Below are positions 7,451-12,772 of a stretch of 14,865 nucleotides of DNA, in pieces. The stretch is taken from UHGV virus genome UHGV-0294841; one strand, written 5' to 3'. The notes beneath the pieces were generated by a model. It was not told the DNA's origin. It made no database searches and was given only the letters and a program-made list of their open reading frames with translations. The stretch's first letter is position 1. Every line of letters starts with the position of its first letter. Source of the stretch: a virus. The translations under genes and the position numbers were made by a program.

Positions 7451-7801
7451 TTACTTCAGCCGTTCACGGGCCGTCTTCGCCTTATGACACGGCCAGCACA
7501 GACTCTGCAGGTTACTGTCGGCATCGGTGCCGCCATGCGCTTTGGGAATGATGTGGTCAACGGTTTTCGCCTCGCGCACCACACCGGCACGCAGACACAA
7601 CTGACACAGGCCTTTGTCACGCTTCAGGACACGCGCGCGGATACTGTCCCACTTCGAACCGTAGCCGCGCTGATGACGGGATTGTCCAGGTTTGTATTGC
7701 TTCCAGCCTTCGCTTTTGTGGCTTTCGCAGTAGCCTGAAGGGTCCGTGGTTGTAGAGCGGCAGCCGCGAACACGGCAGGCTTTTGGGGTTCGTGGGGGCA
7801 T
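7451..7801 (-). CDS. HNH homing-type endonuclease, packaging-associated
   Basis: 116 aa with paired Cys ('CRVRGC...C'), a 'DHIIPKAHGG' catalytic His and 'N...CWPCH' zinc motif. Sits immediately upstream of terminase. GGAG SD present. Confidence 0.9.
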   Translation of the reverse strand: MPPRTPKACRVRGCRSTTTDPSGYCESHKSEGWKQYKPGQSRHQRGYGSKWDSIRARVLKRDKGLCQLCLRAGVVREAKTVDHIIPKAHGGTDADSNLQSLCWPCHKAKTARERLK

Positions 7802-7921
7802 ATGTACTCCAATGAAGAAACCAGCGAAATAGCTGCCTTCATTCGTAGTAAACCTTTTTCATCAACGCAGTAATGGATTCTTTGAAGAGTCGCGATCAAT
7901 ACAACTCACTAATGGAGAGAC

Positions 7922-7941
7922 TTGTCTCACGCATGAGACAA
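7922..7941. repeat. Perfect 8-bp-stem palindrome (ttgtctca-cgca-tgagacaa)
   Basis: Seen directly in the intergenic region between HNH and bor. Followed on the plus strand by the T-rich 'atttcccgtttgattt'. Could be a terminator or a protein-binding site. Confidence 0.4.
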
Positions 7942-8022
7942 ATTTCCCGTTTGATTTAATGGACACTATAGAGGGACAGAATGCCTTCCTCACTCGAATC
8001 ACATCAATTAAGGAGGTTCAAC

Positions 8023-8145
8023 ATGTTTCATTCCCCAAGTCATCAGGCTGTAATTATGGCAGCATCAGTTTGTGCCACAGACCTTTTCCGCTTCACTTTG
8101 AGCCTGATTCATTTCTACCTGACCGGCTCGCCTCTATCTTTTTAA
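8023..8145 (+). CDS. Possible small hydrophobic peptide (40 aa) with near-consensus RBS
   Basis: AGGAGG at 8011-8016, 6-nt spacer, ATG at 8023. Encodes 'MFHSPSHQAVIMAASVCATDLFRFTLSLIHFYLTGSPLSF'. No family recognised; the call rests on the RBS alone. Confidence 0.3.
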   Translation: MFHSPSHQAVIMAASVCATDLFRFTLSLIHFYLTGSPLSF

Positions 8146-8325
8146 TCCCCGCTTTATCCAAATTGCATTGCCAGAATGCCGACAACAGACTGACATTCAA
8201 ATCCTGACTACCTCCAATAGTCTGATCGTACACCTATATAGTTTTAATTTTCATCAATCCATTTAACTATCGTTTAATTGTTGTCACATAGGATTCTGCC
8301 GTTTTTAACAATGCAGGATAATAAG

Positions 8326-8619
8326 ATGAAAAAAATGTTGTTTTCTGCCGCTCTGGCTATGCTTATTACAGGATGTGCTCAACAGACGTTTACTGTTGGA
8401 AACAAACCGACAGCAGTAACACCAAAGGAAACCATCACCCATCATTTCTTCGTTTCGGGAATTGGACAGGAGAAAACTGTTGATGCAGCCAAAATTTGTG
8501 GCGGCGCAGAAAATGTTGTTAAAACAGAAACCCAGCAAACATTCGTAAATGGATTGCTCGGTTTTATTACTTTAGGCATTTATACTCCGCTGGAAGCGCG
8601 GGTGTATTGCTCACAATAA
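8326..8619 (+). CDS. bor: Bor outer-membrane lipoprotein (lambda Bor-like, serum-resistance moron)
   Basis: 'MKKMLFSAALAMLITGCAQQTFTV...EARVYCSQ' matches my recollection of lambda Bor closely, including the ITGC lipobox. I take the start as ATG 8326 (AGGA 8 nt upstream), not the track's TTG at 8278. Opposite strand to the late operon, AT-rich. Confidence 0.9.
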   Translation: MKKMLFSAALAMLITGCAQQTFTVGNKPTAVTPKETITHHFFVSGIGQEKTVDAAKICGGAENVVKTETQQTFVNGLLGFITLGIYTPLEARVYCSQ

Positions 8620-8629
8620 TTGCATGAGT

Positions 8630-8647
8630 TGCCCATCGATATGGGCA
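8630..8647. terminator. Short palindrome between convergent bor and Rz (possible weak bidirectional terminator)
   Basis: tgcccat-cgat-atgggca, 7-bp stem, lying between the bor stop (8619) and the Rz stop (8651). No clear U-tract on either side. Confidence 0.3.
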
Positions 8648-8650
8648 GCT

Positions 8651-9112
8651 CTATCTGCACTGCTCATTAATATACTTCTGGGTTCCTTCCAGTTGTTTTT
8701 GCATAGTGATCAGCCTCTCTCTGAGAGTGAAATAATCCCGTTCAGCGGTGTCAGCCAGTCGGGGGGAGGCTGCATTATCCATGCCGGAGGCGGTGGTGGC
8801 TTCACGCACTGACTGACAGACTGCTTTGATGTGCAACCGACGACGACCAGCGGCAACATCATCACGCAGAGCATCATTTTCAGCTTTCGCATCAGCTAAC
8901 TCCTTCGTGTATTTTGCATCGAGCGCAGCAACATCACGTTGGCGCACCTGCATGTCAGTAATTGTCGAGTTCGCCAGCTTCAGTTCTCTGGCATTTTTGT
9001 CGCGCTGGGCTTTGTAGGTAATCGCGTTATCGCGGTAATGATTAACAGCCCATGACAGGCAGACGATGACGCAGATAACCAGAGCGGAGATAATCGCGGT
9101 TACTCTGCTCAT
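8651..9112 (-). CDS. Rz: Rz i-spanin
   Basis: 153 aa with N-terminal TM ('[20 protein letters not shown]') and coiled-coil periplasmic domain. ATGA overlap with R. Closely resembles lambda Rz. Confidence 0.9.
8710..8892 (-). CDS. Rz1: Rz1 o-spanin lipoprotein, embedded in the +1 frame of Rz
   Basis: '[23 protein letters not shown]...[15 protein letters not shown]' has a lipobox (VVGC) and proline-rich stretch and is nearly identical to lambda Rz1 as I recall it. Entirely nested inside Rz. Confidence 0.85.
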
Positions 9113-9585
9113 ACCTCAATCTCTCTGACAGTTCCGCCTGCTTCCTTGAATTTTGCAATCAGGCTGTCAGCCTTATGCTCGAACTGACCATAACCAGCGC
9201 CCGGCAGTGAAGCCCAGATATTGCTGCAACGGTCAATTGCCTGACGAATATCACCGCGATCAATCATCGGTAAAGCGCCACGCTCTTTAATCTGCTGCAA
9301 TGCCACTGCGTCCTGGCTTTTGGGGGAGAAGTCTTTCAAACCAAGCTGTTTACGGTAAGCATCCCACCAGCGTGAAAGAAGCTGATAACGTCCGGCGGCT
9401 GTTGACTTGAGTTTCGGGTTTAGCGTGACAAGTTTGCGAGGGTGATCGGAGTAATCAGTGAAGAGTTCACCACCGACAATAACGTCATAACCGTGGTTAC
9501 GTGTCGGTTGTCGTCCGTTATCCGTTCCTTCTGACCAAGCCACCATATCAAGGAAAGCTTTACGCTGGGAATTTAGTACCTGCAT
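9109..9585 (-). CDS. R: Endolysin R (lambda-type lytic transglycosylase)
   Basis: 158 aa; '[45 protein letters not shown]...' matches lambda R closely from memory. Sits between holin and Rz. Confidence 0.95.
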
Positions 9586-9588
9586 AAA

Positions 9589-9915
9589 TTACTCCTTAGA
9601 GCCACCAAATTTGTTACCGATTACTCGCATTGCAGCCCCACGAATAGCATCGACACCGATCAGCCCCACCCCACCACCAATGGCAACAGATAGTGATTTA
9701 GGCCATCCGACATACTCAAGAGCGGATGCAAAAGTCAGCGTCAGAGCGCCACAGAGTAGAATTTCGAGTGTTTTTCGCTTCCAGCCGCCACCACCGCCAA
9801 AATAGGCGATACGTAAACCAGCCATAACAATCGACATAATCACTGCGCCCAGCGGTGTGTCTCCACGCCACCAGCTCTGGACCAACTCCAGCCAGGTATT
9901 TGGGTTATGAGGCAT
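9589..9915 (-). CDS. Holin (not lambda S family; multi-TM, Gly-rich)
   Basis: 108 aa immediately upstream of R with 2-3 hydrophobic segments and a GGGGG motif. ATG start with a GAGG-containing SD. Assigned by position and hydropathy rather than by family recognition. Confidence 0.7.
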   Translation of the reverse strand: MPHNPNTWLELVQSWWRGDTPLGAVIMSIVMAGLRIAYFGGGGGWKRKTLEILLCGALTLTFASALEYVGWPKSLSVAIGGGVGLIGVDAIRGAAMRVIGNKFGGSKE

Positions 9916-10066
9916 TTGTAGTTATCTCTCACCTCGCAATACAGGAGGTGCAAATTGAGGGAACATCATGTACCGCAAATCAGAAGCGGAAACGTAAAAG
10001 AAGTCGAGCCAATGGATAAGTACCAGATAGACCAAGCCCAACGAATACCAAGGCCTAGAAATGACA

Positions 10067-10088
10067 AAACCCGCTCGACGGCGGGTTT
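10067..10088 (-). terminator. Rho-independent terminator-like hairpin upstream of holin (tR'-like candidate)
   Basis: On the minus strand: aaacccgc-cgtcga-gcgggtttTGTCATTT, a GC-core stem followed by a U-rich tract. Lies ~150 bp upstream of the holin start, where lambdoid phages place the Q-antiterminated tR'. Confidence 0.5.
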
Positions 10089-10233
10089 AAGTTGTGTGGC
10101 GAAGTAACCACTCTTAACATGATACATCACTTTTTGCGGACCGTGCTAATGAAATATGTTCGTTAATTTAGTATGTTAAGGACTATCTAAATTGCCTTCA
10201 AAAAGTACAAAAAAATACAAAAAAGGGTTTCTT

Positions 10234-11331
10234 ATGAATGAGCAAACGATCAACCTTTTAAGAGATATCACCGAACGTGTTGGATGGAAGCTCACAAAAA
10301 AAATTGTGGGGGAACCACTTGGTGTCACATCAGTTGGCCTTGACCCATTTATCGCGAGGCTCCAAGCAACAGAAGATGTAGATCAGGAAGCTGTAAGTAC
10401 TCATATAGGTGAAGTATGGCAAAATTTACTATTGAGTGGGACCCGTTTAGTTAAGCTGTATAAGTTAGAACCGGAAGAAGTGCAAACTCTACGGGAGAAT
10501 ATAAATGCCCTAGAAAGAGACGAATCCGTTTTTTGCGAAAGCTATCCATATCCTTTGCCTAAAGATGTGTTGCTTGCAGCTGATACAGATCTTCATTTTT
10601 TAGAAACTACATTTTCTGTCGTAAACAAAGTTTCTTTAGAAACAACGATTCTTACGTCGAAAGCATACTACACAGAAACTATTGAACTCGACGCGACCCA
10701 TTTAAGCGATGCTGGGCTAGCTCTTCGCTCCAATGGTGGTGAAATCAAATGTAAAACACGTGAAGTTACACAGTGCTTTAATACAATAATGATTCTACCC
10801 GAGTTGCATTTACTTGCGCTCACTGTTGATTTATCTGTGATGCCTCGTTCAGAGTCGGAACGACAGCAATTTTTGCTTGATCAGTTTATTAGAACTACTA
10901 CTGGTTTGACTTTACCTGCGCCCATTGACCTCTTTGGATTAGTACAAGAAATGTACGAGCAAACAGATGGTAGAATCTCGCAGATGTCATTTCTTACATC
11001 AGATGGAAACACCAGCTCATTAAAACTCCGTCCGGGTGAAAGCTGCTTGCGCTCAGACAGCTACCATCATGGGGGCGAAGAGGCAAGTCCCATACTAACG
11101 AAATACAAACTCGGTAAAATTTGGGATCTGACTGATTCAGCTTCTCAAGTTTTCCCTGTAGAATTAATACTGCCAGGTAAACGGGCTATGATTGATAAAC
11201 CGAACAGTCACCTTTATGATGCAATCATAGATCGTTGCTCCTCAATTGAGCATATTTTGTTTGTAATCAACAAGATGTTAGAGTCACTATCAAGCATACA
11301 GAGAAAGCGAGCCACTGACGAGGCTGCATAA
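10234..11331 (+). CDS. Hypothetical protein A (365 aa), first gene of an AT-rich three-gene insert; no recognised domain
   Basis: 1.1-kb ORF in ~40% GC DNA (flanking phage genes roughly 50% or higher by my hand count), where chance ORFs are short. ATG 10234 preceded by AAAAGGG; the track's earlier start at 10192 is a TTG. 10-bp gap to gene B. Confidence 0.75.
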   Translation: MNEQTINLLRDITERVGWKLTKKIVGEPLGVTSVGLDPFIARLQATEDVDQEAVSTHIGEVWQNLLLSGTRLVKLYKLEPEEVQTLRENINALERDESVFCESYPYPLPKDVLLAADTDLHFLETTFSVVNKVSLETTILTSKAYYTETIELDATHLSDAGLALRSNGGEIKCKTREVTQCFNTIMILPELHLLALTVDLSVMPRSESERQQFLLDQFIRTTTGLTLPAPIDLFGLVQEMYEQTDGRISQMSFLTSDGNTSSLKLRPGESCLRSDSYHHGGEEASPILTKYKLGKIWDLTDSASQVFPVELILPGKRAMIDKPNSHLYDAIIDRCSSIEHILFVINKMLESLSSIQRKRATDEAA

Positions 11332-11341
11332 AGAGTTGATT

Positions 11342-11764
11342 ATGTTAACTAAACACGACATATACTCGAAAATCAACCACGACCTACATGGGCCGGTTGG
11401 AGATTTATGTCGTGTTGTGGTTGATTTTTTAACCAGCAAAGAAGCTAAGTCACTGAAACACATAACATATGTAAGTTTGGTTAATGGTACTAAGCTTGAT
11501 GTGCAAAATAACGATGCCAAAGTTTTACTGATCAAAGTAACTGACTATCTTTCGAGCAACAGAATGCACTTGCTAGATATGCATTTCCAGTATATCGAGT
11601 CTGACGATAGTGATCCTATTCCCGTCGATGATGATGACGTGTCTCATGCGCTTCATACAGGTAAGTTTTATCATCCTTACAGTGGTCAATTAGTCGATAA
11701 TTATAATCATTATTTGTTCCCATACTTCACTCCTACTGAGGCTTTGGAGGAATTACATGAGTGA
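11342..11764 (+). CDS. Hypothetical protein B (140 aa), acidic
   Basis: ATG 11342 with AAGAG SD. Stop overlaps gene C start by 8 bp (ATGAGTGA). Acidic tract 'ESDDSDPIPVDDDDV'. No family recognised. Confidence 0.7.
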   Translation: MLTKHDIYSKINHDLHGPVGDLCRVVVDFLTSKEAKSLKHITYVSLVNGTKLDVQNNDAKVLLIKVTDYLSSNRMHLLDMHFQYIESDDSDPIPVDDDDVSHALHTGKFYHPYSGQLVDNYNHYLFPYFTPTEALEELHE

Positions 11765-12392
11765 ATGTAATTTCAACCTTGCCCAATTAGACACCTTAAG
11801 TCAATTTGACCCTGAATTGTCTGGTTTTCTTAAGCGAAAATTTGCAGCAAGTCACGACGATTTCGTGAAGCAACTTTACGTTGACCTTGATGACGCGATG
11901 TATGTTTTGGAAACCCAAAAACATATGTATCAAACACAGCAGTGGGGTGAAGATGAGCTCACATCAGTTATTATTGCTTTTTTGAAAGGCCGTAATTATG
12001 ACGCTGAACATGACACTCAGCATGGAGGGCATATAGATATATTAGTTAAACATCAGCTCGGCCGATTTGCATGGATTGGCGAAGCTAAATTATGGAAAGG
12101 TCCTGCGTACATCTTAGGTGGATGGAACCAGCTCAACGAGCGATATGGCACTGGCACTGCGCGTGACAACCATGGTGGCATTATCATTTACTGTAAAATT
12201 AAGAAATCTGGCGAGAGACTTGATGACTGGCGAAAGCATCTTCAGCAGGAAGTAGCTGATGCAAAAATTACAACCGACGAGGATAATCCCTTGCGATTCA
12301 TGAGTACAACATTGCATCCAGCTACAAATCAACCATATTATGTAAGACATATGGTCGTTTCATTATTTCATGCTACAGGAGACTCAGAGTAG
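11757..12392 (+). CDS. Hypothetical protein C (211 aa) with PD-(D/E)xK nuclease-like motif
   Basis: 'GEDELTSVIIAFL...GGHIDILVKHQLGRFAWIGEAKLW' places an Asp at the end of a hydrophobic strand 15 residues before an E-A-K triplet, the classic PD-(D/E)xK arrangement, with an upstream Glu-containing helix. ATG start coupled to gene B. The 3' end overlaps the Q gene 3' end by 25 bp, convergently. Confidence 0.75.
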   Translation: MSECNFNLAQLDTLSQFDPELSGFLKRKFAASHDDFVKQLYVDLDDAMYVLETQKHMYQTQQWGEDELTSVIIAFLKGRNYDAEHDTQHGGHIDILVKHQLGRFAWIGEAKLWKGPAYILGGWNQLNERYGTGTARDNHGGIIIYCKIKKSGERLDDWRKHLQQEVADAKITTDEDNPLRFMSTTLHPATNQPYYVRHMVVSLFHATGDSE

Positions 12393-12754
12393 TCATCCAT
12401 TTCAAGTTTCACATCCAGCATACTTAGGCAGCCATCGATAAAACCTTCAGCAACCTGTATCTCGATACGTATCAATTTTTCGTCTTTATTACGTGCCTTT
12501 GCGATCTTTCTTTTCGAGATGCCATACAGGTAATGAGCCACAATCAAAGAATGTTCGTACGGTTTTCTCTTCTTAAGAAGAGCAAGGCTACCTTCAATAA
12601 TTAATGCATCACTATCTGAACAAGCTAGACGTGTCTTTCTGGTATATGGAAGAAGCCCCTTAAACCCAGCAGCTATAGACGAATAGTCAACTCCTGAGCT
12701 ATCACTCGCTGCCCATGCCCCCCAACGTTCAAGGATCATCTGTATATTACGCAT
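12368..12754 (-). CDS. Q: Late-gene antiterminator Q (21/82/QuuD-like family)
   Basis: 'MRNIQMILERWGAWAA...SSIAAGFKGL...IEGMLSMLDVKLEMD' resembles QuuD/Q21-type antiterminators as I recall them, and the ~128-aa size fits. Start taken as ATG 12754 with GGAGA SD. Sits upstream of the lysis cassette. Confidence 0.75.
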   Translation of the reverse strand: MRNIQMILERWGAWAASDSSGVDYSSIAAGFKGLLPYTRKTRLACSDSDALIIEGSLALLKKRKPYEHSLIVAHYLYGISKRKIAKARNKDEKLIRIEIQVAEGFIDGCLSMLDVKLEMDDYSESPVA

Positions 12755-12772
12755 CAACTTTCTCCGAAAAAA

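What the first reader, a model, noticed from the sequence alone, without database searches (positions are those of the whole stretch)
10234..12392. AT-rich three-gene operon inserted between Q and the lysis cassette: candidate undescribed defence (or exclusion) system
Three tightly coupled plus-strand genes (365, 140 and 211 aa; 10-bp gap, then an 8-bp overlap) sit antisense to the phage late operon. Their GC content is about 40% by my hand count, versus roughly 50% or higher in flanking phage genes, indicating horizontal acquisition. The Q-S interval is the canonical lambdoid cargo hotspot (Shiga toxin genes, other morons, defence genes). Gene C has a PD-(D/E)xK nuclease-like core; genes A and B have no motif I can assign to a known family. 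The architecture (large candidate sensor, small acidic adaptor, nuclease effector) resembles abortive-infection systems but matches no named system I can recall.
Basis: partly seen in the sequence, partly recalled or inferred. Interest (0 to 1): 0.85.

Follow-up and report, generated by a model that had tools for sequence, protein, structure and literature searches.

The report
Prophage defence operon DS-21, already published
The three AT-rich genes are real and are an anti-phage defence operon, but the identical operon was already cloned and shown to block T1-like phages in a 2026 Science paper (system DS-21); what remains open is how it works, and here its largest protein turns out to have the DNA-clamp fold of RdgC.

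Summary
Three coupled + strand genes (A 10234-11331, B 11342-11764, C 11757-12392) form a 40% GC island between the Q antiterminator gene and the holin gene of a lambdoid E. coli prophage.

The defence reading is right, but "undescribed" is not. All three proteins are 100% identical to DS-21 (working id TOXO) of DeWeirdt, Mahoney and Laub, Science 2026 (PMC13092281). On a low-copy plasmid with its native upstream region, that operon cut plating of phage Bas1 about 10^4.5-fold and Bas11 10^2-fold. The paper gives no mechanism.

New here:
- C has a BamHI/OkrAI-type PD-(D/E)xK fold, and its catalytic residues are kept in every homologue.
- The body of A has the two-lobed RdgC/IML3/CHL4 DNA-binding fold, the fold class reported for lambda RexA. 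It has no sequence similarity to RdgC or RexA.
- A belongs to a family of at least 454 clusters with no Pfam or PADLOC match.
- The A-B-C order is kept in 10 distinct contexts: lambdoid, Mu-like and other prophages, a satellite-like element and chromosomal sites.
- The cassette lies between Q and a conserved leader/terminator element, so probably upstream of the late promoter.

Most likely mechanism (inferred): a DNA-sensing A/B complex licenses nuclease C.

The parts
10234..11331 (+). Gene A = DS-21A (365 aa, pI 4.96). N-terminal helical SAP/HeH-like region followed by a two-lobed alpha/beta body with an RdgC/IML3/CHL4-type fold. Most conserved motifs: DGR (245-247), R273-x-D-x-Y-H-x-x-G281, K295-x-W297.
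11342..11764 (+). Gene B = DS-21B (140 aa, pI 5.29). Small acidic protein with a conserved acidic stretch at aa 81-100 (net charge -8). The DS-21 authors report a putative winged helix.
   Evidence: 100% identical to WP_021552536.1. Alignments A2 and A8. No hit by hmmscan or PDB profile search. Authors' HHpred: DUF5939 p 0.94, wHTH at 21-73 p 0.8. Always found between A and C.
11757..12392 (+). Gene C = DS-21C (211 aa). PD-(D/E)xK restriction-endonuclease-fold nuclease and presumed effector. Catalytic candidates: E65/D66, D94, E109, K111, Q125.
10150..10233 (+). Cargo-specific upstream region of A, presumed to hold the operon's own promoter and ribosome-binding site. It diverges completely from prophages that carry other cargo.
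   Evidence: Junction alignment. No consensus sigma-70 site was found by the scan. [quoted passage not shown]
10066..10119 (-). Invariant 54-nt element with a small hairpin and a GC-rich terminator hairpin plus U-run, directed towards the lysis genes. Putative late-promoter leader/terminator (pR'/tR'-like). It marks the holin-side boundary of the cargo slot.
   Evidence: Terminator scan hit at 10088..10067. RNA fold -18.5 kcal/mol, z -2.27. Identical in phages PhiR40_1 and mEp460 and in L001. About 91% identical in further lambdoid phages.
12368..12757 (-). Q antiterminator gene (PF06530), the Q-side boundary of the slot. Its last ~8 codons lie in cargo DNA and overlap the 3' end of C by 25 bp (convergent).
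   Evidence: Pfam E 3.9e-50. Junction alignment.

Best explanation
This is DS-21, a three-gene anti-phage defence operon carried as opposite-strand cargo in the slot between the Q gene and the late-leader element of a lambdoid E. coli prophage.

Proposed mechanism:
1. The three translationally coupled products form a DNA-directed complex.
2. A combines a SAP/HeH motif with a two-lobed RdgC-type DNA-clamp fold, and probably acts as a dimer. It recognises a DNA structure or DNA-protein intermediate made by infecting T1-like siphoviruses.
3. B is a small acidic protein with a putative winged helix. It bridges A to the nuclease or holds the nuclease in check.
4. C, a BamHI-like PD-(D/E)xK endonuclease, is then licensed to cut DNA, which stops phage replication.

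Status of each step:
- Shown by published experiment: the identity with DS-21 and the defence phenotype.
- Shown here: the folds, the conserved catalytic residues and the strict A-B-C synteny.
- Inferred: the division of labour (sensor, adaptor or inhibitor, effector), the trigger, and whether phage DNA or host DNA is cut.
For: Identity and phenotype:
- A, B and C are 100% identical to the DS-21 (TOXO) proteins, and the CDS span is the same 2,159 bp.
- The DS-21 plasmid in E. coli MG1655 reduced plating of Bas1 by 4.48 log10 and Bas11 by 2.0 log10. Plaques were smaller for Bas3, Bas9, Bas67 and T3. The result is marked as replicated.

Nuclease C:
- The model is confident (pLDDT 91.3).
- D94, E109 and K111 are invariant in 29 homologues and retained in trios as remote as E 1e-20 for A.

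Protein A:
- The model has pTM 0.80.
- The RexA structure paper groups these same relatives with RexA as one DNA-binding fold class (PMC11077077).
- A SAP-domain match agrees with the authors' HeH call.

Functional unit:
- HMM searches confirm the A-B-C order in 10 distinct contexts (loci).
- The short gap and overlap between genes point to co-translation.

Mobile defence cargo:
- Low GC.
- A variable slot.
- Also carried in a Mu-like prophage, a satellite-like element and a non-lambdoid Yersinia prophage.
Against: - No biochemical or mutational data exist for DS-21 in the paper's main text. Nuclease dependence, complex formation and the trigger are all untested.
- A is strongly acidic overall (net charge about -17), and I could not examine its surface electrostatics.
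- The RdgC superposition is loose (rmsd 6.9 A over 198 residues). The viral Foldseek matches have low TM-scores of 0.23-0.40.
- A has no sequence similarity to RdgC (no Pfam hit) or to RexA (hhalign probability 0.24). The fold may be shared without a shared function.
- A's most conserved motif (residues 273-282) lies in the only low-confidence part of the model.
- B's structure could not be predicted here, and its winged-helix assignment is only HHpred p 0.8. B could simply be a transcriptional autoregulator.
- One contig shows an A homologue without B and C (L018).
Confidence: 0.65

Rival explanations
1. Toxin-antitoxin or addiction-type module. C is a DNase toxin held inactive by the acidic protein B, which acts as antitoxin or DNA mimic. 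A is an accessory regulator or chaperone. Defence arises when phage-induced shut-off or degradation of B frees C, giving abortive infection.
Against: The 365-aa A protein is as strictly conserved in the trio as B and C, which a simple two-part TA model does not explain. The defence is phage-specific, strongest against two T1-like phages rather than broad. No toxicity or neutralisation data exist.
Confidence: 0.15
2. Constitutive, methylase-less restriction, in the manner of a type IV or solitary type II enzyme. C, alone or with A and B as specificity or DNA-loading subunits, directly recognises a sequence, modification or DNA-end feature found in certain phage genomes and absent from the host. 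No infection-triggered activation step is involved.
Against: No methyltransferase is present in the cassette or next to it. A sequence-specific enzyme would then attack the host chromosome unless it depends on modification. The sensitive phages are, to my knowledge, ordinary T1-like phages with unmodified DNA. Two extra conserved subunits are unusual for type II or type IV enzymes.
Confidence: 0.12
3. A phage-benefit recombination or replication module rather than dedicated immunity. An RdgC-like modulator of RecA/RecFOR (A) and a structure-specific nuclease (C) serve the prophage's own DNA metabolism, and exclusion of other phages is a side effect.
For: RdgC is a recombination modulator (PMC11077077). 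A 284-aa phage protein named 'Exonuclease' is among A's best viral structural matches. The cassette lies near the RusA and DUF968/HNH genes of the replication/recombination region.
Against: It is transcribed opposite to all neighbouring phage genes, from its own upstream region. It is dispensable, since closely related phages and prophages carry unrelated cargo at the site. It also occurs at a chromosomal site next to Fic and in a satellite-like element. It defends when cloned alone in a prophage-free context.
Confidence: 0.05

Closest known systems
DS-21 (working id TOXO), DefensePredictor-discovered system; DeWeirdt, Mahoney & Laub, Science 2026 (PMC13092281)
   Same: All three proteins are 100% identical, the gene order is the same and the CDS span is the same 2,159 bp. 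It is the same system.
   Different: Nothing differs at protein level. The paper reports only the phenotype and HHpred domain labels: HeH for A, DUF5939/wHTH for B and PDDEXK for C. It does not report the RdgC-type fold of A, the size of the A family, the synteny survey or the Q/late-leader slot.
Lambda RexAB exclusion system
   Same: Both are prophage-encoded and expressed from their own promoter in the lysogen. The larger protein has the RdgC/IML3/CHL4-type two-lobed DNA-binding fold (A here; RexA in PMC11077077). Conceptually both pair a DNA-associated sensor with a separate effector.
   Different: A has no sequence similarity to RexA (hhalign probability 0.24), and no named RexA is among A's top 50 viral structural matches. 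There is no RexB-like membrane protein: B and C have no hydrophobic segments, whereas RexB is strongly hydrophobic. The effector here is a soluble nuclease. There are three genes rather than two. The location is next to Q, not cI. The phages affected are T1-like, not T4 rII.
E. coli RdgC (PF04381; PDB 2OWL)
   Different: No sequence match to Pfam RdgC for A or for 50 diverse family members. Sequence identity is 9% and rmsd 6.9 A. A carries an extra N-terminal SAP/HeH region and a conserved R-x-D-x-Y-H loop. RdgC is a solitary housekeeping gene, not part of a nuclease operon.
Lamassu (LmuA PD-(D/E)xK effector type) and other nuclease-effector defences (Hachiman HamA, McrBC, Shedu)
   Different: The operon has no SMC/ABC ATPase (LmuB), helicase (HamB) or AAA+ GTPase (McrB). 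No ATPase motif was found in A or B, so sensing would not depend on NTP hydrolysis.
PADLOC candidate PDC-S54
   Same: C's nuclease core matches positions 253-368 of the 410-position PDC-S54 model, in 26 of 29 C-family members, best E 8e-9.
   Different: PDC-S54 is modelled as one 410-residue protein. Only its C-terminal domain is shared. A and B have no PADLOC match.

Membership tests
DS-21 (DefensePredictor system 21) | Protein sequences of the three genes as listed in Table S8 | tested here: met
   Exact string identity for A (365 aa), B (140 aa) and C (211 aa).
DS-21 (DefensePredictor system 21) | Three-gene transcription unit with the same order and span | tested here: met
   Table S6 gives CDS 7805-9963, which is 2,159 bp. 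Window 10234-12392 is also 2,159 bp.
DS-21 (DefensePredictor system 21) | Anti-phage phenotype | not testable with these tools
   Published for identical proteins: Bas1 4.48 log10, Bas11 2.0 log10, replicated TRUE.
PD-(D/E)xK nuclease superfamily (gene C) | Restriction-endonuclease-like alpha/beta core fold | tested here: met
PD-(D/E)xK nuclease superfamily (gene C) | Catalytic D ... (D/E)-x-K motif conserved | tested here: met
   H-x-D94-I-L-V and G-E109-A-K111 are invariant in 29 homologues and in the remote trios.
PD-(D/E)xK nuclease superfamily (gene C) | Metal-dependent nuclease activity | not testable with these tools
   No biochemical data for DS-21C were found.
RdgC family (PF04381) (gene A) | Sequence match to the Pfam RdgC model | tested here: not met
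   No Pfam hit at E <= 0.1 for A, and none at E <= 0.01 for 50 diverse members.
RdgC family (PF04381) (gene A) | RdgC-type two-lobed fold | tested here: met
RdgC family (PF04381) (gene A) | Ring-shaped dimer that binds DNA non-specifically | not testable with these tools
   No multimer prediction or electrostatics tool was available. A is acidic overall.
RexAB exclusion system | RexA homologue by sequence | tested here: not met
   hhalign of the 50-member A profile against lambda RexA gives probability 0.24.
RexAB exclusion system | RexB-like polytopic membrane partner | tested here: not met
   Kyte-Doolittle 19-residue maxima are 0.60 for B and 0.38 for C, against 2.39 for lambda RexB.
RexAB exclusion system | Co-transcription with the cI repressor in the immunity region | tested here: not met
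   The cassette lies next to Q, about 6 kb from the repressor region of the prophage.
Lamassu | LmuB SMC-like ATPase and LmuC partner | tested here: not met
   No ATPase or SMC domain in A or B by Pfam, NCBIfam or PADLOC.
Lamassu | LmuA-type PD-(D/E)xK effector | tested here: inconclusive
   The authors' HHblits search gives probability 94.7 to LmuA_effector_PDDEXK. PADLOC hmmscan returned no LmuA model, only PDC-S54.
Type II restriction-modification | Cognate methyltransferase adjacent | tested here: not met
   No methyltransferase is in or beside the cassette in the window or in L001.
Toxin-antitoxin module | Toxicity of C alone, neutralised by B | not testable with these tools
   Needs expression experiments. 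The arrangement, a small acidic gene overlapping the nuclease gene, is compatible.

The most novel reading that the evidence does not exclude
DS-21A founds a large, unannotated family (at least 454 clusters at 50% identity) of RdgC-fold DNA sensors. Like lambda RexA, they would detect a phage-specific DNA or DNA-protein intermediate, but here they are wired to a soluble PD-(D/E)xK nuclease through a small acidic winged-helix adaptor instead of to a membrane channel. If so, Rex and DS-21 would be two branches of one ancient class of NTP-independent immune sensors built on the RdgC/IML3/CHL4 clamp. The conserved R-x-D-x-Y-H-x-x-G loop of A would be the switch that contacts DNA or the nuclease.
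Probability: 0.3. Interest if true: 0.7.

Novelty: already known. Interest (0 to 1): 0.4.

Why it matters
As a discovery it adds nothing, because the operon is a published, experimentally validated defence system. Its value is as a lead on mechanism. DS-21 is one of many validated systems with no known mode of action, and the paper leaves most of A unannotated.

Three results here make the mechanism testable:
- The RdgC/RexA-class clamp fold points to DNA-binding assays for A.
- The intact nuclease centre points to catalytic mutants of C.
- The conserved loop of A is a candidate switch to mutate.

This also links DS-21 to the still unsolved question of what RexA senses.

The map of the slot between Q and the late leader matters too. 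More than 1,400 complete E. coli genomes match the flanks, and the examined relatives each carry different opposite-strand cargo. None of the alternative cargo checked is in PADLOC or in the paper's tables. The slot is therefore a ready source of further candidate defence genes.

Tried and rejected
Searches that found nothing:
- Pfam, NCBIfam and PADLOC hmmscan of A and B. PHROGs gave only families of unknown function.
- Profile searches of PDB sequences with alignments of A (close and broad), B (close and broad) and C. Nothing was significant; the best E-values were 0.12-1.8.
- Pfam and PADLOC scans of 50 remote A-family members. Only stray single hits appeared: DUF7238, PDC-S02 and MTase_II, each in 1 of 50 members at E around 0.005-0.01.
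- Pfam scan of 15 diverse B homologues at E <= 1. Only noise, and DUF5939 was not recovered by hmmscan.
- Plasmid collection and Rfam.
- Literature searches for the accessions in main texts, for DUF6731, and for follow-up work on DS-21.

Hypotheses tested and rejected:
- The alternative cargo at the slot (the DUF6731 pair) is a diverged DS-21. hhalign probabilities were 0.1 and 1.7.
- A is a RexA homologue by sequence.

- The phage collection holds no sequenced phage with the cassette. tblastn with A found only two weak Acinetobacter phage hits at 19% identity.
- The search for related loci failed with the diverse alignments because no block was conserved enough. With the close alignment it found only one species-representative genome.
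- The afdb50 fold library was unavailable.
Full report
The ORF list and the sequence show three + strand genes at the stated coordinates. A is 10234-11331 (365 aa), B is 11342-11764 (140 aa) and C is 11757-12392 (211 aa). A and B are separated by 10 bp, and B and C overlap by 8 bp (ATGAGTGA). C has a GGAGGA ribosome-binding site. GC content is 0.41, 0.38 and 0.42 for the three genes and 0.40 for the module. The phage structural genes are at 0.55 and the lysis and Q-side genes at 0.51. Pfam identifies the - strand neighbours as Q (PF06530, 12368-12757), a DUF968/HNH protein, KilA-N, a lambda-type holin (9589-9915) and Rz, plus a + strand bor/iss gene. The genes are real: they match PHROG families at E 1e-151, 1e-62 and 4e-96 and have many homologues.

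**2. Where it sits.** The window is a lambdoid prophage integrated at tRNA-Thr next to proA in E. coli. The exact cassette occurs in 12 of 5,426 complete E. coli genomes, mostly pig-associated strains. In contrast, 1,435 genomes match the flanking Q or holin DNA. The relatives I examined carry different cargo at the same place and in the same opposite-strand orientation:
- a DUF6731 gene plus a 147-aa gene;
- a 313-aa plus a 149-aa pair;
- single genes of 148 and 308 aa in the sequenced phages PhiR40_1 and mEp460.

Junction alignments put the acquired module at about 10150-12395. On the Q side the junction falls at the end of Q, so the last ~8 codons of Q lie in cargo DNA and overlap C by 25 bp. 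On the holin side the cargo abuts an invariant 54-nt element (about 10066-10119). That element contains a small hairpin and a GC-rich terminator hairpin with a U-run, pointing towards the lysis genes. It is shared by all phages with this Q type. I read it as the late-promoter leader/terminator module, which is an inference. If that is right, the cargo lies between Q and the late promoter rather than inside the late transcript. That differs from the position of stx genes in Stx phages (own knowledge).

**3. It is a conserved three-gene unit.** Homologues of A, B and C are all annotated as hypothetical and have no Pfam domains. Fetched loci and HMM searches with my own profiles show A, B and C adjacent and in that order in 10 distinct contexts:

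| Locus | Context |
|---|---|
| window / L001 | this lambdoid E. coli prophage |
| L014 | Enterobacter sp. kpr-6 |
| L007 | Erwinia lambdoid prophage, again between Q and the holins |
| L009-L011 | second E. coli lambdoid prophage, next to Q |
| L004-L006 | Yersinia prophage, between a giant MuF/LPD protein gene and tail genes |
| L008 | Grimontia Mu-like prophage, between Mu F and the protease gene; A 40% and B 42% identical by hhalign |
| L015 | satellite-like element with integrase, AlpA, primase, capsid, protease, portal and small terminase |
| L016 / L017 | chromosomal site next to a Fic gene |
| L020 / L021 | remote member |
| L022 | remote member |

One short contig has A alone (L018). 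The second E. coli type (L009-L011) is about 51% identical at protein level. It is present in 14 more complete genomes, including EPEC E2348/69.

**4. It is already published.** Searching the supplements of DeWeirdt, Mahoney and Laub, "DefensePredictor", Science 2026 (PMC13092281), found the accessions of A and B. Table S6 lists working id TOXO as DS-21. It has three hypothetical proteins (WP_001532221.1, WP_021552536.1, WP_001557682.1) and a CDS span of 7805-9963. The row is marked defensive = TRUE, with category "Predicted novel defense gene". The sequences printed in Table S8 are identical, residue for residue, to the window's A, B and C.

[quoted passage not shown] For TOXO, Table S7 records:
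- Bas1, 4.48 log10 reduction in plating;
- Bas11, 2.0 log10 reduction;
- smaller plaques for Bas3, Bas9, Bas67 and T3.

The system is marked as replicated. To my knowledge Bas1-Bas13 are T1-like Drexlerviridae, so the protection is mainly against that group.

The paper's main text does not discuss DS-21. Its HHpred sheet gives these labels:
- A: HeH/SAP at 16-48 (p 0.64);
- B: DUF5939 at 1-138 (p 0.94) and a winged helix at 21-73 (p 0.8);
- C: DpnII/MboI-type PDDEXK at 37-160 (p 0.96).

An HHblits search links C to the Lamassu LmuA PDDEXK effector. No RdgC, RexA or 2OWL entry is attached to DS-21. I found no follow-up papers.

**5. What the proteins are.**

*A* gives a good model (pLDDT 82.5, pTM 0.80).
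- A has no sequence similarity to RdgC or to RexA.
- Its best viral structural neighbours are uncharacterised phage proteins and one protein annotated "Exonuclease". TM-scores are low.
- An exhaustive HMM search shows A belongs to a family of 454 representative clusters at E <= 1e-3 and 231 at E <= 1e-10. Nearly all are full-length proteins of about 350-370 aa.
- Its most conserved motifs are DGR and R-x-D-x-Y-H-x-x-G. The second lies in the only low-confidence loop of the model.

*B* is acidic, with a conserved acidic stretch (net -8 over aa 81-100). It stayed an orphan in every search I could run.

None of the three proteins has a transmembrane segment, unlike RexB.

**6. How it most likely works.**
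- *Shown by published experiment:* the operon alone defends.
- *Shown here:* an intact restriction-type nuclease, a partner with an RdgC-class clamp fold and a SAP motif, strict synteny and translational coupling.
- *Inferred:* A, probably as a dimer, senses a DNA structure or nucleoprotein intermediate of the infecting phage. B bridges or restrains the nuclease. C cuts DNA.

I put about 0.97 on the identity with DS-21 and on the defence role, about 0.85 on C being the catalytic effector, and about 0.4 on the specific roles of A and B.

The rivals are a TA-like arrangement with B as antitoxin, constitutive methylase-less restriction, and a phage-benefit recombination module. The evidence for and against each is given in its own entry.

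**7. Comparison and novelty.** By sequence identity this is a member of DS-21, so it is already known. It works something like Rex, with a sensor on the RdgC fold class and a separate effector. It also resembles nuclease-effector systems such as Lamassu, Hachiman and McrBC. It fails the defining tests for all of them: no RexA sequence homology, no RexB-like membrane protein, and no ATPase, helicase or methyltransferase partner.

Four things are not in the published record I could read: the RdgC-type fold of A, the size of its family, the synteny survey across mobile-element types, and the definition of the slot between Q and the late leader.

**8. Verdict.** It was wrong that the system is undescribed. 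Interest is moderate to low as a discovery, with a useful mechanistic lead.

Noticed in passing
window 7800-8650 (bor/iss gene 8323-8619, + strand): A second low-GC island (0.41) holds a Bor/Iss serum-resistance lipoprotein gene (PF06291). It is transcribed opposite to the late genes and lies between Rz and the HNH/terminase genes. This is a classic lambdoid moron.
   Followed up: partly
window 12368-12395: The Q gene's last ~8 codons (...DDYSESPVA) are encoded by cargo DNA and overlap the 3' end of gene C by 25 bp. Relatives with other cargo end Q about 8 codons earlier. Cargo exchange therefore rewrites the C-terminus of Q.
   Followed up: partly
window 10066-10150 (- strand): An invariant 54-nt element with two hairpins, the second a terminator, is shared with phages PhiR40_1, mEp460, 1720a-02 and others and has no annotation in those records. 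It is probably the late-promoter leader/terminator for this Q family. No Rfam family matches.
   Followed up: partly
L002 3322-4710; L003 3313-4725; L012 2647-3093; L013 2642-3568: The same slot in other prophages and phages carries unrelated opposite-strand cargo: DUF6731+147 aa, 313+149 aa, and single genes of 148 and 308 aa. None hits PADLOC, and the four accessions of the two gene pairs that I searched for are absent from the DefensePredictor supplements. These are untested candidate defence or exclusion genes.
   Followed up: partly
L011 5323-7473; hits H43-H50: A second DS-21-type cassette, about 51% identical at protein level, lies next to a PF06530 Q gene in a different lambdoid prophage. 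It is in 14 of 5,426 complete E. coli genomes, including EPEC O127:H6 E2348/69 and O145 strains. In L009 and L010 the third gene is called shorter, at 197 aa.
   Followed up: partly
L015 1957-13095: A remote A-B-C trio (364/140/216 aa) sits in a small element with integrase, AlpA, a primase-like gene, capsid, prohead protease, portal and small terminase. It looks like a capsid-forming phage satellite carrying the defence cassette.
   Followed up: no
L004-L006 1-7564: In Yersinia the trio lies beside a 2,753-aa protein with MuF_C and LPD1/LPD5/LPD38 domains, a giant polyvalent phage protein, and next to tail-tip genes.
   Followed up: no
L001 21858-22493 versus window 11757-12392: The closest complete-genome copy (strain NT1F10) differs from the window and from the published DS-21C by one residue, P19H. 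The window therefore matches the published ECOR-derived allele rather than the pig-strain allele.
   Followed up: yes
window 7451-7801 (- strand): An HNH endonuclease gene lies immediately upstream of the P27-family small terminase and the large terminase, the usual HNH-terminase packaging arrangement.
   Followed up: no
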